A DNA stretch of 64,000 bases from Glaucostegus cemiculus (Eukaryota), in the NCBI GenBank assembly GCA_976551045.1, contig CDPCPM010000213.1, positions 558,001 to 622,000 on the forward strand, given 5' to 3'. Positions 116-61,411 of the stretch are shown piece by piece (position 1 is the first letter of the stretch; each line of letters opens with the position of its first letter). The notes beneath the pieces were generated by a model. That model ran no database searches and was not told the DNA's origin. It saw only the letters and a list, made by a program, of their open reading frames with translations. The translations under genes and the position numbers were made by a program.

Positions 116-175
116 TAAAAACAGAAAACGCTGGAAATACTCAGCAGGTCAAGTGGCATCTATGGAGAGAGAAGA
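116..175 (-). mobile_element. Penelope-like terminal-repeat fragment (ribozyme part missing)
   Basis: aaaacagaaaacgctggaaatactcagcaggtc...gcatctatggagagagaa matches the family copies at 42160 and 57885. A second small fragment lies at about 583-620 (+). Confidence 0.65.
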
Positions 176-685
176 TCAGAGTGCAGCGCTTCTGTTTGCT
201 GACTGGGTAGAAGAGGCCCAAGAAGCTAACTTGCTACCTAGTTGCTCATTTCAATAACCACTTCCAGAAAGTTGCCCTATATTGACTGAACTTCAGAATT
301 AAGTAATTGACTGCAATGTACTTTGAGACAACTTTAGGATGCAATAAAAGCTGGCCAAATACAATGCCTCTCTTTCTAGTTTTTCACTCAGCAAGTGATT
401 AAAAATAAAACATTCTGCATTGAATTGCTCTGCCACCATCTTTTGAAATGCCATTAAAGCACATAGAATTAAGGAGCAAATTGTATTCAGTCTGCTACAT
501 ATTCTAATTGAAAGAACATTATCTAACTCCGAACATTACAAGCAAACAATGTTCAGTTCAAATGTAGGGGTCAAGATGAGTGCCAAAGATGCTGCCTGAC
601 CTGCTGGACATTTCCAATGTTTAGCATCAGCAAAATTTTGCCCAATAACCAGTCAATCAGTACCGAATTCTTGTCAAACTGAAAT

Positions 686-1011
686 ATAAGGTAAGACAAG
701 ATATCTTTATTAGTCACATGTACATTGAAACACACAGTAATATACATATTTTGCGTAGAGTGTTCTGGGGGCAGCCCGCAAGTGTCACTGCTCTTCCGGC
801 TCCAAGATAGCATACCCTCAACTTCCTAACTCGTACGTCTTTGGAATGTGGGAGGAAACCGGAGCACCCGGATGAAACCCACGCAGATATGGGAAGAATG
901 TACAGACTCCTTACAGACAGCGGCCGGAATTGAACCTGGGTTGTTGGCACAGTAATAGCGTTATGCTAACTGCTACACTACCATTCCTGACCTACGTTAC
1001 TGTGCCTGCCC
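686..1011 (-). mobile_element. tRNA-derived V-domain SINE, tail type A (Rex1-like tail)
   Basis: tRNA-like head at 925-985, V-domain ggaaaccggagcacccggatgaaacccac, tail with aataaagatatctt on the minus strand. Close match to copies at 8821, 12290, 41490 and 47380. Confidence 0.85.
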
Positions 1012-1624
1012 TAATCTAACTAATATAGTTAGAGTATGTGTATTAGACTCAACAAAATGACAAACTTTCCAATTTTTTAATTTTTTTGACTTTCAGATTA
1101 AGCTCACTGATCTAATTTGCAGCTTTGCATTTGTAATTATCTTCATTGCAGGCACCATCTCTTGCAGGGTTTCATACTTTTTGGCATTTCTAATTATAAT
1201 TGTCAGTTTCATTTATAGTTTTTTTTGTCAGCATTGTGCTTTTTTCTGTCATCTTGCATATCTGAATCATTCCTGGTGTAACACAAGAGAAAAAGCTATT
1301 CCCCCTTATTGTTCTTATTGGTTACTGATTAACCTTGCCCACTTGACAGAGGTCCTGTCTTGTGTGTTCTCTCTATGATGTTTCTGTACTAGGGTTCAGG
1401 ATTCTTTTCCAACACATTTTTTGTTAACCTTCTTCCCTTTATTTCAATCTCATTGTACAGTCCTCTTGAACTCTTGATTACTTATATTCCCCTTCAGATC
1501 ATTTCACTCACCGTTCTCTTCACTTCTGTCTTTCCACGATCTCTGCACTGTAGCCTCCGTTCCAGAACTCCATTCTTATCCTGGCTGCTTGCTCACTCTG
1601 GTCCTCATGAAGTCCCAGTCACTT

Positions 1625-1810
1625 TGTTCTGCTGGATGTTGAGCTGACCATCAAATCCATCACAACCGCCATTACCAAGGTCAGCTATCTCTAGCACTGT
1701 ATCATCACTTGCCTCCTCCTCAACCACTGCTGATGAAAACCTCACCCTTGTCTTCATCATCTGCAGACACATTTAGTCCAATGTCTCCTTTGACAGCCTG
1801 TCACCCTTGT
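1625..1810 (+). mobile_element. degraded L2-type LINE fragment
   Basis: Pyrimidine-rich sequence resembling L2 ORF2 3' part (gctgatgaaaacctcacccttgtcttcatcatctgcagac). Recognised by eye. Confidence 0.35.
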
Positions 1811-2158
1811 GTCTGTCACTTCTGCACCTCCCTTCCTGACCCTCTATCTTCAGCCACTGGTCCTACTGCAGTCTTGGCCCTCACTGACCAAGGTTATATT
1901 TCTGTTACCCTACACCCCACCCCATTGCTTCTCATTTGTAACCCTGCCATTTCTCTTTGTCCAGATGGCTATGGATTCTTTATATATTACAATGGGTAAA
2001 TGGCTTGGAAATGACCAATCAGCTCAACCAAACAATGTAAGTTGTTGCTCTCTCCTATATATATCCAATGAAGATCAAAAGAGATTCAAGTGAGAAATGT
2101 TTCACCCAAATGAGAAATGTAAGATGCACAAGGACTGCATCTTCCAAACTCTGTATAG

Positions 2159-2283
2159 AGTCCTGATGCAGGGTCTCCACTTGAAACATTGACAATTCCT
2201 TCCCCCCTACAGATGCTGTTTGAGTTCCTCCAGCAGTTGTTACTTTTGCTCCAGATTCCAATATCTGCAGTCTTGTGTCTCCA
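2159..2283 (+). mobile_element. Penelope-derived short element with decayed hammerhead motif
   Basis: gtcCTGATGCagggtctccacttGAAAcattgac...cagatgctg...gagttcctccagc...ccagattccaatatctgcagtcttgtgtctcc. Confidence 0.75.
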
Positions 2284-3075: not shown

Positions 3076-3244
3076 GCGCTCCCGGCTCATAGTCTGAGAG
3101 CCCCGAGAAAGCAAGTCAGTCAGGTTGAAGCAGTGAAGTATAGGGAACCACGGCACAGGGAGCTCCTGTACCGCAGTCTGGATTCTGCTGGATAGCTATT
3201 TGTTAATGAAAGGAGGCTCCGGCCACCAGGGCCAGAATCAAACC

Positions 3245-3346
3245 ATGGAGAGTCAGATCGCTCGCTGCAAGATTGTTGTGGTTGGTGATGCACAGTGTGG
3301 AAAAACTACTTTATTGCACGTTTTTGCCAAGGATTGTTATCCAGAG
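3245..3346 (+). CDS. RND2: RND2 coding exon 1 (P-loop GDAQCGKT); alternative in-frame start at 3206
   Basis: ATG at 3245 is in strong Kozak context (aaccATGg). It encodes [34 protein letters not shown]. Donor gag|GTTGGT at 3347. Confidence 0.95.
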
Positions 3347-3838
3347 GTTGGTATTTTTTTAAATATAATTCTTTACGCTGGAGTAAAGGGGATTTGAACG
3401 CACAATCTGGTTCATTGAGTAACCAGTTCACATTAAGCAAAAAGGGGAACTGGTTACTCAATGAAGTAAATGCGTCCCAAACTGGTATACAGATGCTGCG
3501 ATGTTACATTCTCGGCGCACGAGCCCCTTCTATTTTAATTCGCTAATGATAGTTGCACCAAAGAACTTTTTAAAAAAATACAGAACTGTGAGGAATATAT
3601 AAAATATGGAAGTTTAGATTGAAGAATTACTTAATGTGCATTTTGCAAATGATCTTCCAATTGCACGGTAGCGCTCTATAGCAAGTTTTTAATACACTTG
3701 AGTGTTCTGGAATTAAGTCCTATCTTTATGTTAAATGAATTTGCTACAGATAGCTGTTAAATATTTAACTGATTTTTTAGTCACTTTATATGTTCTTTAA
3801 TCTCATTTTTAATGCCATGTGTTGCGCTTTCATTCCAG

Positions 3839-3926
3839 AATTATGTTCCCACTGTGTTTGAGAACTATACGGCGAGTTTTGAAATTGACAAGCAAAGGAT
3901 CGAACTAAACATGTGGGACACTTCAG
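3839..3926 (+). CDS. RND2: RND2 coding exon 2 (effector loop YVPTVFENY, start of G3 WDTSG)
   Basis: Acceptor ctttcattccAG ends at 3838. The exon is 88 nt, encoding [29 protein letters not shown](G). Donor cag|GTCAGT. Too short for the ORF track. Confidence 0.97.
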
Positions 3927-5239
3927 GTCAGTGAACTGTTTGGTTGATAGGTACTCCTATTTTAATAAGGACCCGTGCCTCTCTAGTCCAGTGTCACTGC
4001 GCTGCTGTAACCCAGGTCCTGAGTGACTACTTGTCTCCGTGCTGACTTGTGTTGGTTCAACTAAACTGAACGCAGACCCTGTGCGCCACTGCGCAAATTC
4101 AGCGCAACTCCCGTACCCTTCCAGAGGCAGATGCTGTAAATCAGTTCATTCTCCGCTTAGTCTAACTGATTGGGGATAGTGTGTATCAAGACTTTTCTGA
4201 TGACATTAAAAGCAGAGTTAAACCATCTGACACCGTCACCGACAGGGCGTGCAACCGGCTCCCTTGTGGAGTGCATCTGAACGCGTCCATTAATTTGATT
4301 GTGGTTTACATTAATCTGACGGCATTAAGGAGTCAATGCAGATGTGCAATGAATATTTTAGCAAATGATCATTGATAATTAAGAGGGATATTACTTAATT
4401 CATTAAAACAATCCCTGGGAAATTTGGATAGTAGAGAGTGATAAAGGTCTCTCAGTGATCCTGCAGATTGCTTCAGCTCGGTTGTACAGACCCGGGTTGC
4501 GTTGAGCGGTGTCCTTGCCAGTGGGCTGGTGTTTGGTCTGTTCTACCAGACTCTGGGCTTTGCAGGAATGGGACTTTGGACAAAACGTGTAACAAAATGA
4601 TTTCGCTGTTTTCATCCCAAGGCTTAGGATGGGGGAGATGTTGAGGGAGTGGGTTGCTAGAGACTGAGAGCTATTGAAAGATTCACAGTGGAGACGGGAG
4701 GCAAACGTTGCTCTTATGGCATGGTGTCCGCTCCATTCTCTCCCCCAAACAGTAAAGACATCTCCCGAGACACAAGCGACTGCAGATGCTGGAATCTGGA
4801 CATATCCTGAGCTCATTTCATGAAAACTTGAAGAGGACAATAATTTTCAAAAACAAACTATTAAACCATTAGGCGCACCAAAGGTATTTTTGGTGTACTC
4901 TGCAGTGGTGCAAACGGTCTTGTTTCCCAGGCGTCAGCAGTACAGCTCCGAAACTGGCCACAGAGAGGCGGTCGAGTGACTGAGGGGCACTTGGTGATGC
5001 ATCGCCCTCCTGGCACTGGATGGGAGCGTGACTTGGCGTGGCTGAGATTGGGAGAAGAGCTCGTAGTGGTTCTCCTTCAAAAATTATTAACCGTTCCTGC
5101 AACTCTTGGGGCATTCCAAAAGGAAGTCTTCCGGCTTTGTGGGCTACATCCCGTATTGCCCCTTCTAAACTTCCCACGAGTTAGGCATTGAAAGGAGCTG
5201 TGACTAAATCCGACTGACCAGCATTGTCCTTAATATATC

Positions 5240-8756: not shown

Positions 8757-9397
8757 AGCACAGAAACAGGCCTTTTGGCCTATCGAGTCCATGCTGATGA
8801 TTAACCGCCCATTTACACTAATAAGATATCTTTATTAGTCACATGCACATCGAAACACAGTGCAATGCATCTTTTGCGTAGTGTTCTGGGGGCAGCCCGC
8901 AAGTGTCACCACACTTCCGGCGCCAACACAGCATGCCCACAACCTCCTAACCCGTAGGTCTTTGGAATGTGGGAAGAAATGGGAGCACCAGGAGGAAACC
9001 CACTCAGACACGGGGAGACTGTACAAACTCCTTACAGACAGTGGCCGGAATTGAACCCAGGTCGCTGGTGCTGTAAAATGTTACGCTAACCGCTACACTA
9101 CCATGCAAGCCCAACACACTACCGTGCCTACCCATGTAATCCTGCATTAACCTCGTTATTTTTATTCTCGTCACATTCACATCTGCTCCCTCCAGATTCT
9201 ATCATTCACCTACATACTATTGGCAATTACAGTGGCCAATTATCCAACCAACATGCACGGATGAAAATGGCAAAGCCAGAGGAAATGCAAGTGATCACAG
9301 GGAGAACATGCAAATTCCACACGGACAGCACCCGAGGTCAGGATTGAACCCAGGCCTTTTACACTGTGAGGCAGTGGGTATACTAGCTGTACCACAG
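8757..9397 (-). mobile_element. older HE1-like SINE interrupted by a younger SINE
   Basis: CR1-like tail cacagaaacaggccttttggcc at the left. V-domain and tRNA head cacagggagaacatgcaaattccacacggacagcacccgaggtcaggattgaaccc at the right. Confidence 0.75.
8821..9134 (-). mobile_element. tRNA-derived V-domain SINE, tail type A, full length
   Basis: Colinear with the 686-1011 copy from ataagatatctttattagtcacatg to ccgctacactacc. Confidence 0.9.
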
Positions 9398-9426
9398 TTC
9401 CACTTGTTGGTTGGAATTAACTAGTT

Positions 9427-10021
9427 GGCGATCTGCATCTCTCCCTTGCCAGTCACTTCAACTCCCCCTCCCACACTATCACTGATATGTCAGTCCTCGG
9501 CCTACTCCACTGCCAGGAGAATTCCAAGCGCAAACTAGTGGAACAGCACCTCATTTTCCATCTTGGAACCTTGCAGCGTAACAACAGAAACATTGAACTC
9601 TCCCTCTTTAAGTAATTCCTCCCCTTCCCCACAACTCCACCCCCCACCATACCTCTCTTCTGCCCTTTCTTAGCCTTTTTGTTTCTACCCCTTTTTCCTT
9701 TCTCTCCTTACCTTTGACCCATCCCCCGGTGGATCTGCTCTCCCCTCCTCTCCCACACCTGGCTATCACAATCCCTTAACTGCATCTACCTATCACCACC
9801 TTGTACCCACCCTGCCTCCTCTTTTGTCCACCTATCACTGCTCTGCTTTTCCCTCCTTATATATTGGGCTTCCTCATTTCCTATCTTCAGTCCTGAAGAA
9901 GAGTCCTGACCCAAAACGTTGACCGCCTGCTTTTGTCCACGAATGCTGCCTGGCCTGCTGAGTTCATCCAGCATCATCGCGTTTTTCATCTAGATTTCAG
10001 CATCTGCAGTACTTTGTCTCC
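9427..10021 (+). mobile_element. Penelope-like retroelement 3' end: GIY-YIG C-terminus, pyrimidine-rich UTR, hammerhead-bearing terminal repeat
   Basis: 9427-9615 reads open as GDLHLSLASHFNSPSHTITDMSVLGLLHCQENSKRKLVEQHLIFHLGTLQRNNRNIELSLFK*, resembling the PLE endonuclease C-terminus (HFN..H...EQ.LIF.LGTL). Then cagtcCTGAAGAagagtcctgacccAAAAcgttgaccg at 9888-9925. Confidence 0.85.
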
Positions 10022-11574
10022 CTATTTGGCTAAAATTAGCTAGAATCATACTAACACATTATAATGAGTTGATGCAGGCCTGAGCATGTGTTGTATCCTT
10101 ATCAGCATGTGTCTGGATGTTGGGACTAGGATTTGCTGGGGTGGCATGGAATTCCTTAGCTTCCAGATATGTATGTAGTAGGCCTTCCCATGAAGAATAT
10201 GGGTTAGGTCCTGATGAGCACCACATCCTATAGAACTGCATTGCAACTTGTGCACAGAAGAGGAAAAGGTGAAAACAAAAGGTGTCAGAAAAATCAAACA
10301 AAAATACTATTTGGGTGTTTTAAATTACCATAATTACAAATGGTGCATTTCTCCCAACAAACCCACTTTCCCCTCTCTCCTGGCCCTATTGCTGCTGCCT
10401 TCTCTCCACATTATGGGTCTAGTAATATGCCGTGTCACATCTGGGGTGCTTCAGGAATTGATTGTTTTGCTTTGGCCAAAACAGGGAGAAATCTTAACCT
10501 CGGAGAGTGGGTGGGTTTTATGATGGCAGGAGATTAAATTCACAAAAGCAGGCAGCAGTTCAGATATGTTTTATGGGCTTACTAACTTCCAAATTTAACT
10601 TGAGTATATCTTACAGCAATTGGGAAATCCCTGCCAGGGAGGTGTGTTGTTAATTTAAATATATTAATGCCTTATTAGGAGCAAACCTGCTCCCCAAGCT
10701 CTATGAAACTCATGAGAAATAGAATGGTGTTAGATGGGGATTGAGAAGCTGAAAATATAATCTTACAATAAATTCCCTAGCTTCACATCTACTCTCATAA
10801 GTGACTGTGAAAGATTTTCTTCAGAGGAGTTGTGTTGGTTTTTTCTCCCTTAGTAAACTTTGGTGAAAGCATTGTTGTTTAGTGTCCACATTTTTGAGAT
10901 AGCTTTGGAACTTGCTTACTGCAGTTGGCTGGTCTCCAACAAGATTGGAAAATGGTGCTGCTCAGGTTGTAATATTGCCCGACCCTGAGGAAGAATGGAC
11001 CAAGTTATCACAGGAACCTTGGGGTCGGCAGGAGTCACCTGCTGACCCAGCTGCGGCTGTAAGAAAGGGCTCGTGTCAGAGAAGAGCTCAAAGGAAGTGA
11101 CGCCCTACACATGGTATATTCAGAACAAGGCTCACTCTGCCCTACGTGCTGCAACAACAATAACCCAGGAGGCTTAGACCAGAGACCGGCAGATCTCCGC
11201 CCTGGCCTATTGCCATCCAGTTTTGGTGTTGACTGCAGTCTTTTCCTTCCCATAAACAGGGAAGATGATGGCCCCGTCCCTGTGAATCCATGTGGTGTAA
11301 CATCCAGCAGCAGAAGTCAACAACAGAGGGGATGGATTTAAGTTGGATGGATTAGAGGTTGGGGGGTGCTGTTGAGGAAATGTTTTTCACCTGAAGACTA
11401 TATAGTTCTCTCCTTGGAAGTTTGAAGGATGCAGAAACCTTAAACACATTTAAAAGGTACGTGGATGAACACTTGAAAGCCATGTCTTTACCAATATTGT
11501 TTATCAGTTAGCATTGATGGTTCACTTTATAAATACTTCAATTCTTCTGATATTCCTCTCCCACTCCACATAAA

Positions 11575-12233: not shown

Positions 12234-12528
12234 ATGTTGGCGCCGGAAGTGTGGCGACACCTGCGGGCTGCCCCCAGAACATTTTATGCATTCCCACCGC
12301 TGTCTGTAAGGAGTTTGTACGTTCTCCCTGTGTCTGCGTGGGTTTCCTCTGGGTGCTCCGGTTTCCTCCCACATTCCAAAGATGTACAGGTTAGGAGCTG
12401 TGGACATGCTGTGTTGGCGCTGGAAGCGTGACGACACTTGCGGGCTGCCCCCAGAACACTTTACGTAAAAGGATGTATTTCACTGTGTGTTTCAATGGAC
12501 ATGTGACTAATAAAGAGATCTTATCTTA
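12234..12528 (+). mobile_element. tail-type-A SINE, 5'-truncated, with duplicated 3' domain in front
   Basis: atgttggcgccggaag...cccccagaaca appears at 12234-12290 and again at 12411-12470. Ends aataaagagatcttatctta. Confidence 0.85.
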
Positions 12529-35071: not shown

Positions 35072-35222
35072 ATAACAAAGGAGACTGCAGATGCTGAAGT
35101 CTGGAGCAACCAACTGCTGGAGAAACTCAGAAGTTTGAGCAGGGTCTCGACTCAAAACGTCCACAATTCCTTCTCTCCCACAGATGCTGCTCGACCCTCC
35201 AGCAAATTGTTGCTTTATTGCA
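35072..35222. mobile_element. Penelope-derived fold-back (inverted dimer) element
   Basis: Left arm gagactgcagatgctgaagtctggagcaaccaactgctggagaaactcag. Centre cagggtctcgactcaaaacgtc. Right arm cccacagatgctgctcgaccctccagcaaattgttgct. Confidence 0.7.
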
Positions 35223-35699: not shown

Positions 35700-35912
35700 G
35701 GAGACACAGGAGAAACTGCAGACGCTGGAAATCTGGAGCAATGCACACAAATCGCTGGAGGAACTCAGCAGGTCGGGCAGAGACCTTTCGATTGATATTT
35801 CGGGCTGAAACCCTTTAACAGGACAGGAAACCGAAAGGTCTCGGCCCGAAACGTCAACCCTCCATCGATGCTGCCTGACCTGCTGAGTTTCCTCCAGTAC
35901 TTTGTGTGATGC
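35700..35912. mobile_element. Penelope-derived fold-back element with two opposed hammerhead remnants
   Basis: 35738-35780 is the inverted complement of 35871-35912. ttgatatttcgggctgaaacc pairs with ggtctcggcccgaaacgtcaa. Confidence 0.8.
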
Positions 35913-36238: not shown

Positions 36239-38567
36239 GGGTGGGGTGGAATTGGCGACGCTTGGATTCGAGACCCTGATTTTTTTTTCTTTACTCCCAG
36301 ATTACAGCATCTGCAGTCTCTTGTGTCTCTGTGCCAGAGAGTCCCTGAGGGAGCAGCGGCAGTCGATCCAAGAGGCAGCAGAATTGGCCGAGTTTCCCAG
36401 GCCCCTGATCCCCTGGTGCTTTTAAAAGCAGCACAGGCGAGGGCAGCAGGTCAAACTTCCTGCCGGGGGTGGGAGAGGAAAATTCTCTGCCTGTTTGGTT
36501 GGGGGAGCAGGCGCTGCCTCCATATGCTATTTCCATATACCAGACTCCTAATTTTGGGTCGTACCACGAAGGAAAATCCAGCCCCAAGCAGTGACATTCC
36601 CATGGGATGCGCTACTGCTGTCTGCGTGTGGGAACGAGTCCGCCTTTGTTTCACCCCAGTCACTGGGACCACCGCAGCTGCAGCTCGCAGTTACAATGCG
36701 AGTTTGTAGTATCAAAGTCTCACGCCAGTCCCAAGACAAGCTTGAGCAAAACCTTAATATTAGGAAAGATCATCAAGAAAAATTGTTACAAGGGGTAGAT
36801 TTTAAGGCAATTGAACGTAGGAGGGAGAGGTTGTGAGTCTGTAGGTTGAGGTGAGGAAGTCCGGAGTTCAGCCACAGAATGATCCTCGGGAAAATCAGCT
36901 GAATGTAAAACTATTGTGAAGTTCTGTTCAAATCCGCAGTGTCTGCAGAGACTTCATGTAGGGATGGAGTACACCCGGCGGTAATGGGATCTAAACACAA
37001 CGGTGGAAGTTTTAAAACTAAACACCAGACTAGAAATGGGGAAACTAAAGTAACACTTCTTAATTGAAACGCCTTATGACATAATTTTCGTCAGTAATCC
37101 AAAGCGGTAATATTGACAGTGTCTGGTATTATTGCGCTTGTTTCGGTTCAGTGGTGGCCCAACACTGTGAGGTGCATTGAGCCATTGTTGCTCCTGGTCC
37201 CGGATACTCTGCGGAGATGCAGCCGGGGCAGCCAGTCTCACGGGAGTTCCAGGCTTCAGCAGAATGGTTTCACTGGTTGCGGGTTTATTTTCCATTCTGC
37301 CGGGCCTCCTCACGCTATTCACTCCCCCTTCCTACAAAGGAACAATTTTATACATTATTATCCGGTAGAAAGAGTGTTGCTATGGCACGCCGCGAAAGAA
37401 ATCCAGCAACTCAAAGCGCTCCAACTCTCTCTTTAACAATGATGACGGGTCACATGCGCTTAATTGAATTACAGGAAGAAGTTGGAAAACTAATGAATTT
37501 GCAGAGACGTTAAATAATCAGTTAATTGGGAAAAAATCCTTTCCCTCACCGTTGTTACTCTCCTCCCCTTATCCCTCTTTCACTCACGCTCTCTCTCTCT
37601 TTCTCCATTTCCAGTTGTCAGTTCTACTTTAACATTGGCAAGGAATTGCTGGGAAAATAAATGCATTGGTTTGTGTCCTTGGACCGCGACTGGGGTGCTG
37701 GCCTTTTGTTCAACGCTGGGGCGGCTGGAGCTGCTTCAGTTTCAACGCTCACTGAATAGTTTAGTTATAACTGGTGTGGCAGATTAAAATGATCCCACTC
37801 AATCACTGTTTTGTGAAGAACTACTTGGATCTGCAGTGCGTCACTGGCACGGCTCCACTCTCTTTACAAAGTGTTGCACGTTCCCAAATGACACTGTTAC
37901 TATACTTTCAGAAATCTCTCATGCGTAGCGGTGGAACAATTGCCATTCCTCTTACTCGGAGGGAAATGAAAACAGTTTCATTATTGTAAAGATAAATTTC
38001 AGTGAGATACAGCTCGGTAAATGGAATCGTTTAAAATCAAGTTTGGTTCCTCATGAGGGTCAAACGATTTTACAAGGGTCGACCTGCTTGGTGTAAGCCT
38101 GTTTCATTACTGAGGAAAATAGTTTTCCAAAAGTATGTTTTATGTAATAAAAGCAATTGGAAATACTTGTTCAGAGATTTTAAACACTTGAAGACTCAAC
38201 AGGACAAATCATTGTGTGCAGTTATAGGCAAGCCATCCAAACTGAAGTGTTGAAACTGTTTTCAGACAACTGAAACTGTTGTCTGAAATCTGTAGGCCAG
38301 GATTGGGAAATCCTGGTGCTGTTTGGACATCATATTTCTGAGTGGGAAGTGTGGGCTTGGCTCAGTAGTTGGGTCCACAGAATGTTGATTCTGTTACTCC
38401 TCTTTTTTCCTGTTTCCTTTGATGTTATGTGGTTTAAGACCACCAAGATACTTGTTGTAGCACTAGTCAATGAAAGGTGGACCTGGGCAATAGCTTCCCA
38501 GGAATTAGTGTTGAAGTTGCAAATCTTAATGTTTGGCTTAAGGACAACCTGAATGATGTGCTGATTC

Positions 38568-38690
38568 GGATCCTGATGTAGGGTCTTGACCTGAAATGTC
38601 GACCACAGATGCTGCTTGACCCACTGAGTTCTTTCAGCATTTTGTTTCTTGTTCCAGATTCCAGCATCTGAAGTCTCCTTTGTCTTCACA
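38568..38690 (+). mobile_element. Penelope-derived short element with decayed hammerhead motif
   Basis: atcCTGATGTagggtcttgacctGAAAtgtcgac cacagatgctgcttgacccactgagttc...ccagattccagcatctgaagtc. Confidence 0.8.
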
Positions 38691-39349
38691 GTATACTGAT
38701 TATTGTGTGATGCTTGGAGCTGTAGTGTGTGGTGTTAAGTTGCATCAGGATTCCCGTTTCTGCTATTTACAGGCCGCCCCTTTAGAAAAGGACATGGTTC
38801 CAGTCATTTTAACAGGCATGCAGGAAAATTGATGATTTGTCACAGGCCCCTTCCCCTCCATTACCCTTACTGATCTATATCCCTGCCTGCCCCATCCCCT
38901 CTCCCACCAACCTCACATCCCTTCTCTCCCTCATATCTCTGCCTCCACCCCCACTTCCCCCACCTCATCAGCCATCAGGTTCTACCCTGGCCCCTGCCTG
39001 TTTTCTTCATGAGCTTTGTACAGGCACAGCACACAGAGGATAGGACTTCCCTCCGGATGCTGTGTGCTCAGACAACACTGAAATTACAAGTGGCAGACCC
39101 CAAGCAAAGCAGTCACTGGGGTGCCACATGGTGACTGATTAAAGCATCATCACAATGTATTTTGGGCAACGCTTAATATGTTGGAGCTGGAACCTGCTGC
39201 ACCTCAGTACTTTAAGGTGCAGTGACATGGGTTTTCCTGTATCTGTAGCATTTCCAATATAAAGTGGCATCTTCAATTCTGGACAAAGAAGGAAGGAAGT
39301 TTCATTATTAAGAAATGCAGTGCAACAGCTATTCAACTCCATGAATTTG

Positions 39350-42159: not shown

Positions 42160-42292
42160 TGACATAAAAAAATCTACAGATGCTAGAATCTGGAGCAAAA
42201 CACAAAAAGTGCTAGAGGAAATCAGCAAGTCAGGCAGCATCCATGGAGGGAAAAAAAGTTGACGTTTCAGGCCGAGACCCTTCATCAGGACC
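42160..42292 (-). mobile_element. Penelope-derived short element
   Basis: Full family unit: ctacagatgctagaatctggagcaaaacac...gctagaggaaatcagcaagtcaggcagcatccatggaggg...gttgacgtttcaggccgagacccttcatcaggac. Confidence 0.85.
42258..42291 (-). ncRNA. minimal type-I hammerhead ribozyme motif, intact core
   Basis: Minus strand reads gtc-CTGATGA-a-GGGT-ctcg-GCCT-GAAA-C-GTC-aac. Has both conserved boxes, a GUC cleavage triplet and palindromic ACGU helix III. First helix-I pair is mismatched. Confidence 0.65.
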
Positions 42293-43649
42293 CTTCTCGA
42301 GGCTCTGCATTCTTCTATAAATACTGATGTTGCTCACTAAAGAAAACTTGACTTAAAAATGCCTAGAATTGGATAGCATTTCTTTATCACTGCACTCCTA
42401 GCAGTCATGGAAATCTCTTGTTTTTTAAATGTATAAAATACAAACTCATCCTATATGAATTATTTTACTGAGCTAAGTAAATTGAATTTAGCTGCTCTTG
42501 CATGCTTACTGATGCAGAAGAGCAGAGTGTTTAAAGGGTTAATTGAAATTGGATCTATATTGAAGTTTTTTTTCCAGTTTGTAAACAACCAATGGAAATA
42601 TATTTACCTGCAAAATTATTTTATCTGCAACGGTCTTGGTGTCAGAATTAATTCATTGTCCCATGCATACATATATTTTCTTCAGCCTCTCAAACAAGAT
42701 TTCCTTTATTTATGTATAGCTGCCACAGCTTAGAACTCATTAGTTTTTAAGTTTTATGGTGTGGTCCCAAGATCTCATTCCGCTGAAACCACTACAAATA
42801 GCTAATGTTATGTTTATTGGACTAAGGTATTCTGTATGAAGTTTTAAATTTTATTTAAGATAAAGGCAACTTTGATCCTTGAGGCAGTCAAAAAATATTC
42901 TGATGTTATCTCTGTGTCTTTAAAAAGCAAATGACTGAATTTTTAAAGAACCAGTTCCTCTAAAATGTAGATTTGAAACTATAACATTTGTGTATCCAAT
43001 ATGTATATTTTAGCGGCTGCTGTGAAATTAATCATTGTTCTATTCCCCCCTGCACCTGAAATCCTGGCCGATTGCCCAGTGCCCTCCCATGTTAGTGTAC
43101 AGACTTTAGTTATAGTGAAATTAAGTAAATGAATGATTTATGATGCCACTCTGATTGTCCTTGCCTGATGTGTGTTCTGGCACTACACAAACTTACCTTT
43201 ATACTTGTCTTGCATTTAGCTTCGTGTTAGCACTCTCACCTTTAACCTGATTAGTTCTAGATACCACAGTTAGGTATTGCAATGTTTTTGCTGGATTTAG
43301 GGTTCTGTACTGAGGAACCCTAGTTTCCAGCAGTCTGATCTCAGACTCGAGAAGTAAACTTCTGTCTTTATCCTGATGACACTGTAGAAAATAAATTCTT
43401 AAGCAAAGGCTTGGAATCTCCAACAGCAGCTGTAGTATGTTCCTCCCATTCAATGTAGTCTGCACTGCCAATTTGCTGTTTCCAACCAAGCAATGCTTAA
43501 GACTTGGGCAGTAAAAGCAAAAATCTTTCCCCAGAAGTCAAAGTACATAATAAATCAATACTGCCTTAACTGCATTGTGCAAATTGTGTGATGTTATCAG
43601 TTTTACCAAATACACTTAAGGAAGACCATCTATATATAATGAACCAAAA

Positions 43650-43750
43650 GCAGTTCTGTTGAAACATTAACCTGAAACATGAACTATGTTTCCCTCTCCA
43701 GAGATATGGCCTGATCTGCTGACTGTTTCCAGTATTTTCTGTTTTTATCA
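43650..43750 (+). mobile_element. Penelope-derived short element, old
   Basis: cagttctgttgaaacattaacctgaaacatgaac...ctccagagatatggcctgatctgctgactgtttccagtattttctgttttt. Confidence 0.7.
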
Positions 43751-45528: not shown

Positions 45529-46308
45529 TGGAGGGATATACCAGATGCCTCAGGGTCAGAAAAAAGTCTCCCATAAATGCCTGGCTTTAGTTTGCAATTT
45601 TTGTGCAAGTCCTAAGCTTGCTGGTTGTGATTTACTGCCTTACACAGTGACATCTGGAGTGTGATGCCCATCATGAAAATCTTCAGATGATTGGATTGTT
45701 GATGGCTTTGATTGTAGTTTGACAACCTTTAGCAATCATTTACATTGGTCAGAATCTAGTAGTGAAATGGTAGTAAAAACAAAAATGGCTTTGATATAAA
45801 TGGAATAACTTTATTAATAAACAGCTGCTCAACTAGATGTAAAAAGATGATCAGTTACAGCATCTTGTCTAAACTCTATATGCCTCATTGTGAATTCTAC
45901 AACGCATGGTACTGCAAAGGTCTAGATGCAATGTTGCAATAACAGAATTTGGTTGCACCTGAGGCCTCTGTCACACCATTGGATGATACACATTTTCACA
46001 TTTGACTGGAGGCACAAGACTGCAGATGCTGGAATCTAGAGCAAAAAACAAGCAACCACCGAACCTACTTCCCAACGCTGGGTTTTGGTTTAGTCAGGCA
46101 AGGGGGCTGGGGGGGGGGAGCAGGGAAGCAGATTCATTGGAGACTTGTAGTGTTCTTCATGCTGAAATGTTCTGACACTCTCCTGTGTGTGGGTAGTTGG
46201 GGTGGGGAGGGACTAGGAATACTGCGGATGTGAGGGTTAGAGGGAGGTAGGAATGAAGGTCCAGGAGATCAGCTTGGTTTGGGAGGGAAAAAAAAATTGG
46301 GGATATTG

Positions 46309-48649: not shown

Positions 48650-49104
48650 TCAGAATCAGAATCAGAATCAGTTTTATTGTCACAACCATATACATACATA
48701 GTATGCATAGGAGCGAGATACCGTCCTCCTCAGGTGCTCGTCCCATTAAATAACAACCAACAGAGACACACAGACACACTTAACAGAATAAACATTAAAA
48801 AACATTAAATATTAAAAACTACGGAAGTTAAAATTAAATTAATACGCAGATTAAATTAAAAATGGCCGGTAAATAAATAAATAGTTATTAAAGTGAACGG
48901 GCTGGTGTCGGGCATTTAAAGTGCTGGTGCATTTCTGTGCACCTAGCATCTCTTAGTGTTAACAAAGGAAGATGGAGGGATGAGAGAGTTTGCAGTTCTG
49001 ATGGCTTGCGGAAAGAAGCTATTGTTCAGCCTGGTCGTTCTTGCCCTGATACACTTAAGCCTCCTCCCTGATGGCAAAATTGTAAAGAGGTGGTGGGAGG
49101 GGTT
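48650..49104 (-). mobile_element. Rex1/Babar LINE 3' end
   Basis: Minus-strand peptide NPSHHLFTILPSGRRLKCIRARTTRLNNSFFPQAIRTANS is the typical Rex1 ORF C-terminus. Ends gtgacaataaaa(ctgatt)n; seen on + as (cagaat)3. Confidence 0.85.
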
Positions 49105-52100: not shown

Positions 52101-52227
52101 GACATAGCAATAAAACACTAATAATCCACTATCTGACTATTCAGAAATCTCATCTGGCTCACTGGATGTTGTTTCCCATGCTCCCTTTCCACTTGCCAGA
52201 GCCCCAGTCCACCTATATAAAAACTAG

Positions 52228-52305
52228 GTACACTTAGCAGGCCAGGCTGCATCTGTGGGAAGGGAAACAGAGCTAATATTTTAGGTTGAAGACCCTTTGT
52301 CAGTT
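52228..52305 (-). mobile_element. Penelope-derived short element, old
   Basis: acttagcaggccaggctgcatctgtgggaagggaaacagagctaatattttaggttgaagaccctttgtcag. Confidence 0.65.
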
Positions 52306-54019
52306 CCCTTGCTCCCTTTCCACACACACAAACCCCAGTTTCTGCACTCCCTTTACTTTTACCTGATTCATTGGAAAATTTATTGTATAACCATGTAACA
52401 TCTAAAATAAAAGTGAAGGTGCGTTGGGGTACTAATAAAAACAACATACAATAGTGCAGAAAATTTGCTAGTCTAGCATTGCAAATTCCCAAATGTGCCT
52501 GATTATTAGAGTTTCACTTTACTGTTAGTGTTATACTATTCAGTACCTAAAGTTCTTCATGTATTGGAGAAGGGGATGGGGTGCAGTGGGAAGATGCTGG
52601 GGAAAATTAGCTGGGTTTCCTGATCTTGCTAGCTGTCCAGGAACCCCAAATATAAAATGTCAGAAGTAGATGGCATTTCACCCCAGATCCCGCCAGCGGG
52701 TTGAATTAAAATTGCAGCCTGTGGATGACCTATTGAAGGGCAACAGGCATGTAAATCTGTAGCATGGCAAGGGGCTATCTCTTCAAGATGGGACGGAGAT
52801 GGATAAACTTAACTGAAGACAATTGATGCCAGTTTCAAATAACATACAGTCTAATGAAATTCTGCTGTGTGATTAATATTGAGTTCTGGAGGGACCAGAG
52901 AGAAGCAAACTGTGGAGAATCACCTTACTGGCCAACACTTAAAGAATTGCACTCTGTATGAACTTGGGATGTGCTAAATGCAGTGCATTATCACTGGTGT
53001 GATATAAGTTCTTTGCAATTTAGCTCTGTGCAAATCATTGTTTCAGTTCCACTGTCTGAATTTTTCAGGTCTTGAAACTCAGAAAAGTTGGTCTTGTATT
53101 GATCCAGCCCTAGTGGTCTCCTGCATTGGTTTTGACTAGTGAAAGGAGCCGGAGTGGAGTTTTTAAATCTACCCCCTTACCCTCCACCTCTGGTATCCCC
53201 ACTAATTAGCCATGGGGTCTGTTTCTTGCCAGGATATCCCATTGCTTTTGTGTGGAATGAGGAGTGTAGGTATTGTGATGCTCAAGGCATTACAAACATT
53301 ACAGTTATGTGGGACATGCTGGATGAGGCACAGGACCTTTTCCTGCCTGTCAATTCTTGTGTGATTTCAGATCTGTTGTTTGTGTCTAGAAATGTGGAAA
53401 CCGGTATTGTGAACTTGAAATTCCCAGGTTGGGGTAGGCGGTGTTGCATCTTGAGTGAGTTTACAAACTTTCTATCTAAGTTTTGTTGGTAATGGAATTG
53501 GGGGCCTCCATCTTGTGCAGATGTTGTTTGGAGATGCAGGTAGTCTTGGCTGGTGGGAATGATTTCTGGTGAAGGTGCCATCAATTCAAGTTTTCCAAGT
53601 ATCAGTTTCTTCTACAGTAGCTGTTTCAGTCAAAAGTTCCTTTACCATGTCAGCAATACACCAGCCTAAGATTCCTGAATCCCGCCATCACTACCATCAT
53701 TGAAGTGGACAATCCAAATGACATAGCAAATAATGAGTAGGGTCACATTCCCTTCAAAACACATGACATAGACCCGACAAGTTCTCCTCAAACGCACTTC
53801 CAATAGTGAAGCTAAGGCCCAGGATATTCCAGCCCCATATTTTTATATTTCAGTCCAAGAGAATTATCTGTGCTTGTACCTGTGCTAAACATGTTCAGTA
53901 AATGTTGGTCAGTTCATGCAAGAGTGTTGCTCATGCACTGAGAAAGGACCAGCTTTCTCCAAGACCTCCTATTTCACCCTCCTTGACACTTGGCTCTTTT
54001 CCAGTTCTGCCTTATTCCT

Positions 54020-56221: not shown

Positions 56222-56557
56222 AACAGTGGTGCAGCAGTTAGGGCTGCTGCCTTGCAGGTCCAGATACCTAGGTTCAGTCCCGAGTTCTGGCACTCTCCTT
56301 ATGGAGTTTGCATTTTCTACCTGTGTCTACATGGGTTGCCTTTAGGTGGTCCAGTTTCCTCCTTCATCCTGAAGACATGCTAATAGTTTCTGTAAATTGC
56401 CCCTGGTGTAGGTGTGTGACAGGAGAATTGGGAGGAGTTGATGGGTACATTACAGAAAGTAGGTTACAGGGAAGTAATTTCCGCAGTGGGACTGACAGAA
56501 ATGCTCTGAGAGCTAGCATAGATTTCATGGGCAGAATGAGTCCTTCTATGTTGTAAG
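56222..56557 (+). mobile_element. HE1-like tRNA SINE (older)
   Basis: A box gtggtgcagcagttag, B box ggttcagtccc, V-domain tggagtttgcattttctacctgtg...catgggtt...ccagtttcctcc, CR1-like tail atgggcagaatgagtccttct. Confidence 0.8.
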
Positions 56558-57885: not shown

Positions 57886-57985
57886 ATAAAAACAAAAAAG
57901 CTGGTGACACTCAAAGGGGCAGGCAGCATCGGTAGAGAGAAAAGCAGAATTAATGTTTCGGGTCAATGACCCATCATCAGAACTG
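57886..57985 (-). mobile_element. Penelope-derived short element nested in CR1
   Basis: taaaaacaaaaaagctggtgacactc...caggcagcatcggtagagagaaaagcagaattaatgtttcgggtcaatgacccatcatcagaactg. Confidence 0.8.
57947..57985 (-). ncRNA. minimal type-I hammerhead ribozyme motif
   Basis: Minus strand reads cAGTT-CTGATGA-t-GGGTC-att-GACCC-GAAA-C-ATT-AATT. Intact boxes, perfect 5-bp stem II, 4-bp helix I. Helix III palindrome decayed (ACGT to ACAT). Confidence 0.6.
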
Positions 57986-58179
57986 TAAATCTTTGGCATT
58001 TTCTACCAGAAGGAACTGTGGATACTCAGATTCAGTATATTCAAGGCTGAGATTGGTAGATTCAAGGAAATCAGAGGATATGAGGACCGGGTGGCAAACA
58101 GGACTAGAACATCCACAAGCTTACTGAATGGTGAAGCAGACTGGAGGTGCCTTTTGGCTTTTCTTGATCACGTTCTTAC

Positions 58180-58420
58180 CTGCTTCATTGTGGGTGGTAC
58201 TTTGGGATTGAGGATGACTTGCTTCCTCTCCAGTTCGGAGGTGATTGATGAGGCAAATCCAGGACTTGCAGGTTCTGCCTCTGTCTTTGACCAGGCAGGT
58301 GGTGAGCATTTTGTGAGGTGGTGGACCCTTTACGCCAAGCTTCTGTGTGTTCCTGATGCACGAGCTCAAGGTTCGCCATTCCATCCTGAATGCTTCTCCT
58401 TGCCCTCTGTTCTTCCCAAT
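58180..58420 (-). mobile_element. RTE-type LINE 3' end
   Basis: Minus strand TTCLVKDRGRTCKSWICLINHLRT resembles the RTE C-terminal C2H2 finger (C..CGR.C.S.IGL.SHLRTH). Followed by gaagcaagtcatcctcaatccc. Confidence 0.55.
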
Positions 58421-60084
58421 GTAAGTAACAATAACAAAGTGACTGGCAAGAGTTAATACATGTTCCAGATGAGTTTGGTGATATTGGTGTCAGCCTTTGT
58501 TGTTCATTTTGATCCTCTCTTTTCTCCCACTCTGCTTTATATTTCTTGCCAGCTTGGCTGGGAACAATCAGCGAACCACAGCAGGAGTATTTGACTGACA
58601 GGCTGGACTTTGAATAAAACTCAATAAATCTGAGCCCGTTGCTGATTGGTTTAATTAATGTTTGGCAATTTCATTGAGCCTTGGTTGCAATTACCAAGAA
58701 AATATTTAGATTTCTAATATTTCAGTTGTGGTTTTGAATGCAAGTTAGCAGTTATGTTCCTGTTAGTTGGAATTGGTTGAAGCTGTGTAAACTGAACTTT
58801 TAGTCAGCGCAAGGTGGCTGTCCTTAATTGTCTGTTCATCTGTGTGCGGGAAAATGCATCAAGGCAGCGTGCAATGAACTTCAGATTCAACAATGGTTCA
58901 GTGAAGTGACAGCCTCTGAGAATGTGTCTGAAGCCCAAGGTATTTGGGAGTAAAGGAGAATGATGAGGAGTGTGTGGAAGAGGTCAGGCACACAGCGATA
59001 ACAAATCAACCCCACTATACATGATCCGTGACCCATCATTGGTAAATTCCTGACTCAAATGCCCCTCTCTACGGGGGTCACAGTAACTCTAATCCTTATC
59101 CAACTTCCTGAACTGTCAACACTTATGGGAACCAACAGCAGGAAAACTGAGGGCTTGGATCATTATACAGGTCACAGTTCACATGGGAGGGTGTCCTTTG
59201 GGGCTACACCATGCAATCTCCATTTAGTGGTATGAGAAAGTAGAGCTGCAGAAAATGGTAGGGGCATGTTCATTACCAGTGAGCGAGTTGATTTACTTTA
59301 ATCCTTTAACAGGGTAAAACCAAAGCAAATTATGTTAAATAACATTATCTAATAACTGATAAAGCAACAAAGATGTTGTCCCTTATTAATTTTATCAGAG
59401 TGAGGGTAGGATTCTTTCAACAACAGAAGGAATGCTCTCCTATTTTGTATGCGTCTATTCTACTTTCAAAACACATGCTTTGTAGGAAACGTAATTATAA
59501 CACTATTAGATTATAAAGACACAAAGCTCTTTCAGTTAAAAGGAGAGGGTTTGGGGGCACACGTGTGGATCATTAAAACAGCTGATGTGGCGCACGTCTG
59601 CTGATACCAGTGCCATTCTGTTGTTTCCAGTTTGACCTGCTCTTCTGGGTAAAGAGCATTTGTTGGAAAGTAATGGGGCTGCCATTTTAAATATGAAAAT
59701 TGGATCTTCATGATGTCATTGAGTTGACTGTAACGCTCAGAGTAAGGACTTGAACGGGAAGCAAATTTGAGCCCTTCCTTGAACCACTGACACCCGTGGT
59801 TTCCACCTCACAAGTTTCTCTCCTTTACGTGAAGCCCACCCCACTTCACCCCTCCACTTTGCTGAGTGCCAGAGACCGCTTCTTTGATGCCTCACCAGTT
59901 ACACAAACCTCAGTGCTGCTAACGCAATGTTGCCCCAAGCAGGTGTTGGGGTGGGGTGGCAAAGGGTTAAAATCCCTGCCTCACACTGGGTAGTGCCACT
60001 CTGTGCTGTTGGCCTCCTTCTGCAGTGTCTGTTTTACTGTTCTTTCACCTTTGCGGTAGTGTTGTATGGTATGTAGCAACATGC

Positions 60085-61146
60085 ATTCATAGATCAATGC
60101 AGCACAGGTACAGGCCCTTGAGTCCATCCAGTCCATGCTGACCATGGTGTCCACCCAGCTAGTTCCAACTTCCTGCATTTGGCCCATATCCACTAAGCCC
60201 TGCCCCTCCATGTACCTATCTTTAATGATACCATTGTACTTGCCTCAACCACTTCCTCTAGCAGCTCGTTCCATATACTTACCACCCTCTGTGTGAAAAA
60301 GTTGCCCCTTGGGTCCCTTTCAAATCTTTCCCCTCTCGCCCTGAACCAATGCCCCCTAGTTCTGGACTTCCCTGCCCTGGGGTAAAGACTGTTACCATCC
60401 ACCTTATCTACGCCTCTCATAAGGTCACCCCCATTCTCCTACATTCCAAAAAACAAAGACCTAGCCTGGTTAATTTCTCCCTATAACTCAGGCCCTCTAG
60501 TTCTGGCAACATTCTCATAAATCTCTCCTGCACTCTTTCCAGTTTAACCATGTCTTTCCCATAACAGATGACCAAAACCTTACACAGCACTCTAAGTGTG
60601 GCCTTACCAATGACTTGTGCAACTGCAACATAATGTCCCAACTCCTCTACTCAGTGCCCTGACTGATGAAGGCCAACATGCTAAATGCCTTTTTCTCCAT
60701 CCTGTCTACCTGTGATGCCGCTTTCAATGAACTATGCACTCATACTCTCAGGTCTCTTTGTTCCATTACACTCTCTAGTGCCCTACATAGTACAAGTCCT
60801 GCACTGGTTTGACTTTCTAAAATGCATCACCTCACACTTATCTGTATAGAAATCCATTTGCTACTCCTTGGCCCACTTCCCTAACTAGTCAAGATGCGTC
60901 ATTTGCAAACTTACTGATCAAGCCTTGTCCATTAGCATTGAATTCATTTATATAACTAACAAATAACAAGGCTCTCAACACCAACCCCTGCAGCACACCA
61001 TAACTCATCGGTCTCCATTCTGAGAACAACCCTCAACCATTGCACTCTACTTCCCAGCTCTGAGCCAATTTTGAACCTACCTAACCAGCTCTCCCTGGAT
61101 TCCATGGAACCCAACTTTCCAGACCAGCCTACCATGTGGAACCTTT
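60085..61146 (-). mobile_element. CR1 LINE, about 1.06 kb 3' portion (longest LINE piece in window)
   Basis: ORFs 60417-60641 (YGKDMVKLERVQERFMRMLPELEGLSYREKLTRLGL) and 60193-60420 (SRTRGHWFRARGERFERDPRGNFFTQRVVSIWNEL) are CR1 ORF2 motifs. Confidence 0.92.
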
Positions 61147-61242
61147 ATTTACATTTCATATATAAATAAAATGCCTTTAGCTGCAATCCTTCAGAATTTT
61201 ATTATCCTGTCACGAATGATCACTTTAGAATAATTTTTTTTA

Positions 61243-61411
61243 AGCAACAAGCAATCTGCTGGAGGAGCTCAGAGGTGTGAGTTGCATGAGGATTTCAACT
61301 TGCAACATCGACAATTCCTTTCCTCCCACAGATGCTGCTCGTACCTCTGAGTTCCTCCAGCAGATTGTTTGTTGCTCCAAACTCCGGCATCTGCAGTCTC
61401 TTGTGTCTTCA
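61243..61411. mobile_element. Penelope-derived fold-back element
   Basis: 33-nt inverted arms at 61243-61275 and 61344-61376. Family terminus ggcatctgcagtctcttgtgtc. Confidence 0.85.

What the first reader, a model, noticed from the sequence alone, without database searches (positions are those of the whole stretch)
116..61411. Dispersed family of short Penelope-derived elements carrying a minimal hammerhead ribozyme
Seen: about 15 related pieces at 116, 583, 2159, 4766, 9888, 35072, 35700, 36297, 38568, 42160, 43650, 46008, 52228, 57886 and 61243. The fuller copies start right at the motif [gtc|agtt]-CTGANGA-n-GGGTC..GACCY-GAAA-CGTH-[gac|aac] and continue cagatgctgcctgacctgctgagt..ccagc. Known: CUGANGA/GAAA/NUH is the hammerhead core, and Penelope-like elements carry minimal type-I hammerheads with a palindromic helix III thought to cleave as dimers. 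Inference: most copies here lack any ORF and begin at the ribozyme, so they may be a non-autonomous 100-150 nt ribozyme-defined retroelement (retrozyme-like SINE equivalent). Two helix-I variants co-vary (gtc/gac and agtt/aac), which suggests at least two subfamilies with conserved structure.
Basis: partly seen in the sequence, partly recalled or inferred. Interest (0 to 1): 0.75.

Follow-up and report, generated by a model that had tools for sequence, protein, structure and literature searches.

The report
Penelope retroelement end-pieces with decayed hammerheads
The scattered short repeats are real end-pieces of Penelope-like jumping genes that carry a known minimal hammerhead ribozyme motif, mostly broken by mutation, and many begin just before that motif, likely because copying ran off the start of the parent element's RNA.

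Summary
All 15 named pieces are real (profile search; reversed-window control empty). They are 3' terminal-repeat (pLTR) pieces of Penelope-like elements (PLEs), probably Neptune clade, in a cartilaginous-fish genome. One copy (9425-10025) runs upstream through a pyrimidine-rich UTR into a GIY-YIG ORF end. The set shows PLE hallmarks: target-site duplications, two 3' ends 30-40 nt apart (the PLE 'tail'), three tail-only pieces and three inverted pairs. The minimal hammerhead is the published PLE motif. Only 2 of 8 copies keep the core, and each of these has a broken helix, mostly by CpG decay. Covariation does not exceed shuffles; it is one C-G/U-A swap between subfamilies. That is about 30 nt upstream of the cut site, so cleavage does not make these ends, and nothing is tandem: not a retrozyme. 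Most likely they are run-off cDNAs from the parent RNA's 5' pLTR (inferred); independent mini-elements are not excluded. The scan reported the same kind of element in other shark and ray genomes.

The parts
9425..10025 (+). 5'-truncated PLE insertion (601 nt): ORF end, pyrimidine-rich UTR, hammerhead, tail; flanked by a decayed 18-nt target-site duplication (9407-9424 / 10026-10043, 14 of 18 alike)
   Evidence: p_null 0.003
9421..9615 (+). Open frame whose last ~57 codons match the C-terminus of a PLE GIY-YIG endonuclease domain; stop at 9613-9615
   Evidence: 130 relatives at E<=0.001; 54% identity to skate P0013, E 2e-19
9616..9889 (+). Pyrimidine-rich 3' UTR / upstream part of the pLTR (77-78% pyrimidine in the last 100-200 nt); high-copy in four organisms
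9890..9923 (+). Minimal hammerhead motif of the long copy (C3 at 9893); position 12 reads A instead of G, one helix II pair broken
42162..42294 (-). Short copy (133 nt), core letters intact, helix I closing pair mismatched, with tail; starts 6 nt before C3 (42288); 13-nt target-site duplication (42295-42307 / 42149-42161, 12 of 13 alike)
   Evidence: (0 of 300 null pairs score as high)
57888..57985 (-). Short copy, gtt/aat helix I type, core letters intact, palindrome broken, no tail; starts 5 nt before C3 (57980)
   Evidence: (p_null 0.05)
2161..2283 (+). Short copy with tail; position 9 reads C, helix II and palindrome decayed; starts 2-6 nt before C3 (2163)
   Evidence: (duplication p_null 0.18)
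38567..38691 (+). Short copy with tail; position 9 reads T, palindrome decayed, internal deletion; starts about 6 nt before C3 (38573)
   Evidence: (p_null 0.18)
43651..43748 (+). Short copy, gtt/aac helix I type, core broken, no tail; starts 5-13 nt before C3 (43656)
   Evidence: (p_null 0.29)
52209..52314 (-). Short decayed copy, core broken, no tail; starts 5-11 nt before C3 (52303)
   Evidence: p_null 0.03
35073..35217 (.). Inverted (head-to-head) pair: minus arm with tail, plus arm starting inside the hammerhead and lacking the tail
35700..35907 (.). Inverted pair: minus copy with tail (C3 at 35821), plus copy starting at helix II and lacking the tail
61240..61411 (.). Inverted pair: short minus arm without tail, plus copy starting inside the hammerhead, with tail
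100..181 (-). Copy that starts downstream of the core, near the predicted cut site
583..623 (+). Short, weak fragment of the conserved middle block
   Evidence: E 0.014; E 5e-5
4768..4805 (-). Tail-only piece (about 38 nt)
   Evidence: E 9e-6
36290..36329 (+). Tail-only piece (about 40 nt)
   Evidence: E 1e-5
46013..46048 (-). Tail-only piece (about 36 nt)
   Evidence: E 6e-7

Best explanation
The repeats are mutated end-pieces (hammerhead to tail) of the terminal repeat of Penelope-like retrotransposons, likely of the Neptune clade, likely inserted by the parent element's own reverse transcriptase and endonuclease, and the short ones likely arise when copying starts at the internal site about 120 nt downstream of the hammerhead in the upstream repeat and runs off the RNA's 5' end a few bases before the hammerhead. 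Shown here: PLE ORF end on one copy, target-site duplications, two 3' ends, tail-only pieces, inverted pairs, clustered 5' ends, decay of the motif. Taken from papers on other PLEs: internal initiation, transcription start inside the pLTR, ORF start inside the pLTR. Inferred and untested: that the 5' cluster marks the RNA start, and that fold-back of the cDNA end gives the inverted pairs. On this reading the ribozyme is a passenger: it is under selection only in the autonomous parents.
For: Long copy 9425-10025 joins ORF end, UTR, hammerhead and tail inside one 18-nt duplication. Its ORF end matches 130 proteins; the top named ones are from whale shark, skates and stingray, and long relatives carry RT plus GIY-YIG (P0065, P0110, P0052). 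The linker CxxxxCxxC is in P0013 and in 11 of 24 relatives long enough to show it; PMC8557442 gives a linker zinc finger as a mark of Neptune and Nematis. Duplications score at p_null<=0.05 at 8 of 14 loci tested, so short copies were inserted at that length. 3' ends fall in two groups 30-40 nt apart and 3 pieces are that interval alone, as for the PLE tail, which PMC11167929 maps between two RT start sites. Stem II start to tail end is 119 nt at 42288 and 125 nt at 9893, against 111-118 nt in the anole element. In contigs of four organisms, UTR and ORF end are also high-copy (ORF-end depth 0.38-0.54 of hammerhead depth), contigs bridge UTR and hammerhead, and the family goes on upstream of 9428 (148 contigs in X3). 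All 15 changes at the two CpG sites of the motif are TG, CA or TA (11 copies, one row read by eye), and G12 reads G in only 48-62% of laid depth. PMC11167929: hammerhead mutants insert normally in vitro. PMC2377424, PMC8557442, PMC3846280: transcription start or promoter motifs lie in the pLTR, and the pLTR plus tail hold the first 12-22 codons of the ORF; here a conserved ATG opens 13-26 codons in 8 copies, 2 of them with a stop.
Against: No RNA start was mapped and no full-length element with both pLTRs was available, so the run-off step is inference. In D. virilis the RNA starts 46 nt plus an intron upstream of the hammerhead, not 5-10 nt. The 5' ends scatter over about 12 nt. Only 1 of 15 loci carries UTR or ORF, and subfamilies B and C were not linked to any ORF. 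A search for proteins beginning with the unit's frame found none. Six of 14 duplications are not above the null. The depth step at the hammerhead is only 1.6-1.8 fold and the tool warns that contig depth is no copy number; local divergence of this copy shapes the profile. The anole data are from a Poseidon-clade element, not Neptune.
Confidence: 0.55

Rival explanations
1. Some subfamilies are true non-autonomous mini-PLEs: short masters of 100-135 nt that are transcribed on their own and copied in trans by the PLE protein, a SINE equivalent.
For: 6 of 9 simple copies share a start zone and several have duplications; 14 of 15 loci lack UTR and ORF; three subfamilies are visible; in subfamily C position 9 is not A in 3 of 3 readable copies, which would suit a lineage freed from ribozyme selection. 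pLTR sequence suffices for mobilisation in trans (PMC3846280) and putatively non-autonomous PLEs are described in algae (PMC8557442).
Against: No internal promoter source found (no tRNA, no Rfam match); no deletion shared between independent loci; the family of the 9893 copy has abundant UTR- and ORF-bearing members; no single sharp 5' junction among the six best-supported loose ends of any of the four runs, whereas the 3' junction at 10017 is there in all four (2191 rows not shown).
Confidence: 0.24
2. Ordinary 5' truncation of cDNA begun at the downstream pLTR, with a hot spot where the reverse transcriptase stalls after the hammerhead helices or at the pyrimidine tract.
For: The cluster lies at the border between a structured motif and a 77% pyrimidine tract; breakpoints of all 3 inverted pairs lie in or beside the motif on at least one arm; PLEs are known for heavy 5' truncation.
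Against: Laid depth is roughly level from the UTR into the ORF end rather than falling steadily (with the likeness caveat); the helices are short and weak (about -10 to -13 kcal/mol for the two best copies).
Confidence: 0.15
3. A retrozyme: units cut out by tandem hammerheads, circularised and re-inserted.
For: Non-LTR retrozymes are reported as PLE pLTR derivatives, also in a chondrichthyan, with dispersed monomer derivatives (bioRxiv 10.64898/2026.07.22.740005).
Against: No tandem unit in the window; ends do not match the cut site; 3' ends are the PLE tail; the motif is the minimal form, while retrozymes of PMC7229834 carry canonical type I motifs; no copy is fully intact.
Confidence: 0.03
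4. The 5' cluster marks a splice acceptor (pyrimidine tract, then CAG, just before helix I), and short copies come from spliced RNA with a very short first exon.
For: The long copy reads as pyrimidine tract plus CAG three bases before C3; in D. virilis the intron ends at the 5' end of helix I (PMC4209133).
Against: No GT..AG joint landing at 9890 among the 15 best-supported joints in DNA contigs (156 not shown); no shared leader upstream of the short copies.
Confidence: 0.03

Closest known systems
Minimal hammerheads (min-HHR) in the pLTRs of metazoan PLEs, including fish Xena, Poseidon and Neptune (Cervera and De la Pena 2014, PMC4209133)
   Same: Type I layout, extra base after position 9, helix II of about 5 pairs, short helix I, no helix III but an ACGU palindrome; most motifs single and dispersed, read there as probably truncated PLEs; several consensus families per genome.
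   Different: That paper (parts read) names no cartilaginous fish and does not map copy ends; here 5' ends cluster 2-13 nt before the core, and one subfamily may have a non-A at position 9.
Poseidon element of the green anole, PAc (Frangieh et al. 2024, PMC11167929)
   Same: Internal 3' ends about 110-125 nt after stem II, an optional tail between two ends, hammerhead not marking copy ends.
   Different: Here the ORF end looks Neptune-type; the ORF start is not shown; no activity tested.
Insertion architecture of endonuclease-bearing PLEs (Craig et al. 2021, PMC8557442; Arkhipova et al. 2013, PMC3846280)
   Same: 5' truncation, adjacent inverted truncated copy, 30-40 bp tail at one end, target-site duplications, solo pLTRs.
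   Different: No full-length or partial-tandem element lies in this window.
Non-LTR retrozymes (PMC7229834; bioRxiv 10.64898/2026.07.22.740005)
   Same: Non-coding, hammerhead-bearing, related to PLE pLTRs.
   Different: Those are tandem repeats with a hammerhead in each unit and circular RNAs; these are single or inverted pieces bounded by PLE ends.

Membership tests
Endonuclease-bearing PLE (Neptune-type) | C-terminal GIY-YIG endonuclease upstream of the pLTR | tested here: met
   9421-9612 matches GIY-YIG C-termini; 1 of 15 loci
Endonuclease-bearing PLE (Neptune-type) | Telomerase-like RT in the same ORF | tested here: inconclusive
   Not in the window; relatives P0065, P0110, P0052 have RVT_1 plus GIY-YIG; no RT tree built
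Endonuclease-bearing PLE (Neptune-type) | Extra zinc-finger motif in the RT-EN linker (Neptune, Nematis) | tested here: inconclusive
   Truncated away in the window copy; present in P0013 and 11 of 24 relatives long enough
Endonuclease-bearing PLE (Neptune-type) | Optional 30-40 bp tail | tested here: met
   Two groups of 3' ends; 3 tail-only pieces; tail on one arm only in 3 of 3 inverted pairs
Endonuclease-bearing PLE (Neptune-type) | Adjacent inverted 5'-truncated copy | tested here: met
   35073, 35700, 61240
Endonuclease-bearing PLE (Neptune-type) | Target-site duplications | tested here: met
   8 of 14 loci at p_null<=0.05; two at <=0.003
Endonuclease-bearing PLE (Neptune-type) | Full-length ORF between two pLTRs (partial tandem) | not testable with these tools
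   No genome held; none in the window
PLE minimal hammerhead | Core CUGANGA, GAAA, UH with helices I and II | tested here: met
   Core intact in 2 of 8 copies; 81% of helix cells pair against 17-46% when slid; the rest are decayed
PLE minimal hammerhead | Palindromic positions 15.2-16.2, no helix III | tested here: met
   CG kept in 4 of 11 copies, the other 7 are CpG-type changes
PLE minimal hammerhead | Covariation within families | tested here: inconclusive
   Score 0.306 against 0.284 shuffled, 150 of 500 shuffles as high; one C-G/U-A swap, 3 against 2 copies; only 8 rows
PLE minimal hammerhead | Self-cleavage as a dimer | not testable with these tools
   Needs bench work
Non-LTR retrozyme | Tandem units, at least two with a complete hammerhead | tested here: not met
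   No such array; neighbouring loci 455 nt or more apart
Non-LTR retrozyme | Unit ends set by the cut site | tested here: not met
   5' ends about 30 nt upstream of the cut site in 6 of 9 simple copies; 1 copy (100-181) starts near it
Non-LTR retrozyme | Expressed as linear and circular monomer RNAs | not testable with these tools
   Only DNA contigs could be laid
SINE | Head derived from tRNA, 5S or 7SL RNA with an internal polymerase III promoter (definition recalled) | tested here: not met
   No tRNA gene; no such Rfam match at these loci
Non-autonomous PLE family | Short masters with diagnostic changes not found in ORF-bearing copies | not testable with these tools
   No genome; no shared deletion among independent window loci

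The most novel reading that the evidence does not exclude
Cartilaginous fishes carry a true SINE equivalent of Penelope elements: 100-135-nt non-autonomous masters that start at the hammerhead, end at the internal reverse-transcription start, spread in trans, and in at least one subfamily (position 9 not A) no longer need a working ribozyme.
Probability: 0.22. Interest if true: 0.55.

Novelty: new member of a known kind. Interest (0 to 1): 0.27.

Why it matters
The element and the motif are known kinds, and these copies look like decaying relics in and beside an Rnd-family GTPase gene with no sign of a host role. The one point of wider use is the 5' cluster. If it marks the RNA start, short copies would be the PLE counterpart of strong-stop cDNA, would map PLE promoters from genome sequence alone, and would explain why genomes hold thousands of single minimal hammerheads. 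If it marks short masters, PLEs would have their own SINE-like parasites in vertebrates. Either can be decided with one assembled shark or ray genome plus 5'-end RNA data.

Tried and rejected
No whole genome is held, so no genome-wide consensus or end plot could be made. Rfam: no match at gathering score; the E<=10 list holds only chance-like families, the top one being the inverted pair at 61256-61363 folding as a hairpin. Pattern scans: viral contigs 0, prokaryote genomes 0, metagenomes 4 hits that match only 20-26 nt of the profile and were dropped as chance. Protein-to-locus search with P0013 in viral contigs: none. Word-index protein searches with the ORF end and with the 41-codon frame of the 42288 copy found nothing (weak evidence); Pfam did not recognise the 64-aa ORF end itself. 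No RNA holder listed. One search, table 6, lists no place where many molecules begin or end; contigs cannot show starts. The dip in cover at 9587-9701 follows divergence of this copy and was not used. Homodimer folding of the two best copies gave intermolecular helix II pairing, not the ACGU dimer; energy folding is not a test for ribozyme dimers and was not counted. P0004, P0006, P0022 and P0066 are gene models in which a PLE end is fused to unrelated sequence and were not used as full-length parents. Lunse et al. (PMC5785218) is not held. Host function (exaptation) was considered and rejected: no copy is intact and changes follow CpG decay.


Full report
Observation. Self-comparison of the window shows a family of roughly 130-nt repeats. 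The 7 places that were not seeds score E 8e-11 to 0.014, and each seed is recovered when left out. A sixteenth, very decayed candidate at 15111-15175 scores only E 0.43 and is not counted among the 15. The 15 loci sort into 6 simple copies starting just before the hammerhead core (2163+, 38573+, 42288-, 43656+, 52303-, 57980-; numbers are C3), 1 long copy (9893+), 2 copies starting after the core (100-181, 583), 3 inverted pairs (35073, 35700, 61240) and 3 pieces of about 40 nt holding only the extreme 3' end (4768, 36290, 46013).

Setting. Exons of an Rnd-family small GTPase lie near 3246, 3840, 48250 and 61860; the last matches Rnd3/RhoE and Rnd1/Rho6 best in the PDB (E 2e-12). Twelve of the 15 loci lie between the first and last of these exons, on both strands. 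The named relatives of the element's protein are from whale shark, skates and stingray, so the host is most likely a cartilaginous fish.

What the pieces belong to. Upstream of the 9893 copy lie about 275 nt of pyrimidine-rich sequence and then an open frame ending at 9615. HMMER over 1.84 billion representatives finds 130 relatives of this 64-residue piece. Of 12 relatives scanned, 6 show GIY-YIG at E<=0.01 and 4 of these also RVT_1 (one of the four, P0004, looks like a fused gene model). The piece is 54% identical to the end of skate P0013, which has two cysteines before YIG and a CxxxxCxxC linker. PMC8557442 names a linker zinc finger as the mark of Neptune and Nematis, and the 2026 preprint found Neptune and Poseidon in vertebrates. 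So Neptune is likely; no RT tree was built. The long copy sits in an 18-nt duplication (14 of 18, all four differences transitions): it is one 5'-truncated PLE insertion. No other locus carries UTR or ORF.

PLE hallmarks. Duplications score at p_null<=0.05 at 8 of 14 loci tested, against 0.7 expected; the clearest bounds a 133-nt insert at 42162-42294 (12 of 13). Six loci were not above the null, and 583 was not tested. 3' ends fall near profile positions 90-109 or 133-140, the three smallest pieces are that interval alone, and each inverted pair has it on one arm only. This is the 30-40 bp tail with adjacent inverted copy described for PLEs (PMC8557442; PMC3846280), and PMC11167929 maps the tail between two internal RT start sites, 111-118 nt after the start of stem II. 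Here stem II to tail end is 119 nt (42288) and 125 nt (9893).

Evidence from other DNA. Contigs of four organisms were laid on 9380-10069 at 80% likeness (14,440 to 62,074 records per run). Summed depth over the ORF end is 0.38-0.54 of that over the hammerhead, the step at the hammerhead is 1.6-1.8 fold, listed contigs bridge UTR and hammerhead, and in X3 148 contigs continue upstream of 9428 with 0.74 agreement. The 3' junction at 10017 is among the six best loose ends of all four runs, with low agreement, as unique flanks give; no junction near the hammerhead start is among them (2191 rows not shown). The tool states that contig depth is no copy number, and depth follows this copy's own divergence, so these are orders of magnitude only. 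They show that this subfamily has many long members, and leave room for a short class.

The ribozyme. The layout matches the minimal PLE hammerhead of PMC4209133. A strict descriptor finds 2 loci against 0.10-0.25 in shuffles. Of 8 copies with both halves, 2 keep all core letters; one of these has a mismatch at the helix I closing pair and the other a broken palindrome. At the two CpG sites of the motif, 15 of 22 cells in 11 copies are changed, all to TG, CA or TA (row 52303 read by eye because the script mis-parsed it). In laid contigs G12, the general base (PMC6155905), reads G in 48-62% of depth, while the broken helix II position of the window copy reads G in 96-98%. The helices pair in 81% of cells against 17-46% when slid, but the covariation score (0.306) is reached by 150 of 500 shuffles. 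Three subfamilies can be seen; in one, position 9 is C, C or T in the 3 readable copies.

The 5' cluster. Six of the 9 simple copies start 2-13 nt before C3, by homology, by duplications, and because their upstream flanks are 34-57% pyrimidine against 78% for the long copy. Under exponential truncation the chance of 6 of 10 in one 12-nt zone is about 5e-6 or less, and 4e-5 or less for 6 of 13 (crude model, zone chosen afterwards, n of 10 included the weak 15111 locus). But the cut site lies about 30 nt downstream of these ends: an RNA opened by this ribozyme would have lost the core that the copies carry. Cleavage therefore does not define the unit. With no tandem arrays and PLE-type 3' ends, a retrozyme is unlikely.

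Mechanism. PLE transcripts start inside the upstream pLTR (PMC2377424; PMC8557442; PMC6765202), and that pLTR holds the internal RT start and the first codons of the ORF. Copying begun there would run off the RNA end after about 100-135 nt and give inserts with a whole, uncut hammerhead at the 5' end, with or without tail. Hammerhead mutants insert normally in vitro. This needs no new element. It is inference: the RNA start was not mapped, and in D. virilis it lies further upstream. Independent short masters (0.24) and a stalling hot spot (0.15) remain. Identity as PLE end-pieces is much surer (about 0.9) than the run-off step.

Literature seen. PMC4209133 and PMC11167929: parts 1-2 of 4 of the text; bioRxiv 10.64898/2026.07.22.740005: parts 1-3 of 5; PMC8557442: Introduction and passages; PMC2377424, PMC3846280, PMC6765202, PMC7229834, PMC6155905: passages. 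No supplements were opened; those of PMC4209133 and PMC11167929 may list shark motifs or end plots. PMC5785218 was not available. Eight searches listed no paper on hammerhead-bounded short PLE copies in sharks or rays; Repbase and Dfam could not be searched. Earlier notes of this scan describe the same kind of element in other shark and ray genomes, and one reports the same 5' pile-up; they are unchecked and not counted as support.

Verdict. Real, correctly spotted, a new member of a known kind; interest 0.27.

Noticed in passing
window 3246-3347, 3839-3927, about 48250-48360, about 61860-62000 (+): Four exons of an Rnd-family Rho GTPase gene spread over about 59 kb; the RND2 label is recalled, not from a call.
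   Followed up: partly
window 686-984, 8821-9114, 12234-12529, 22667-22922, 41490-41636, 46306-46562, 47381-47563, 56226-56522: A second, roughly 300-nt dispersed family; it resembles the elasmobranch HE1-type SINE (label recalled).
   Followed up: no
window 15005-15175: Very decayed candidate inverted pair of the same PLE family (E 0.43; sequence shown).
   Followed up: partly
window 2163, 35139, 38573: A subfamily in which hammerhead position 9 reads C, C or T instead of A; may be a fixed non-canonical core.
   Followed up: partly
window 3408-3468: A near-perfect 61-nt hairpin in the first intron of the GTPase gene; not part of either repeat family.
   Followed up: no
window 28422-28787 (+) and 48943-49287 (-): Open frames that look like C-termini of LINE reverse transcriptases (CR1-like and Rex-like labels recalled).
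   Followed up: no
P0006, P0013, P0066: Public gene models in which a PLE endonuclease end is fused to a host protein (a neuromedin-U receptor, a DUF4518 protein, a NYAP protein); probably annotation artefacts or exonised repeats.
   Followed up: no
window 9880-9892: Pyrimidine tract followed by CAG three bases before the hammerhead core, like a splice acceptor; D. virilis Penelope has an intron ending at helix I.
   Followed up: partly
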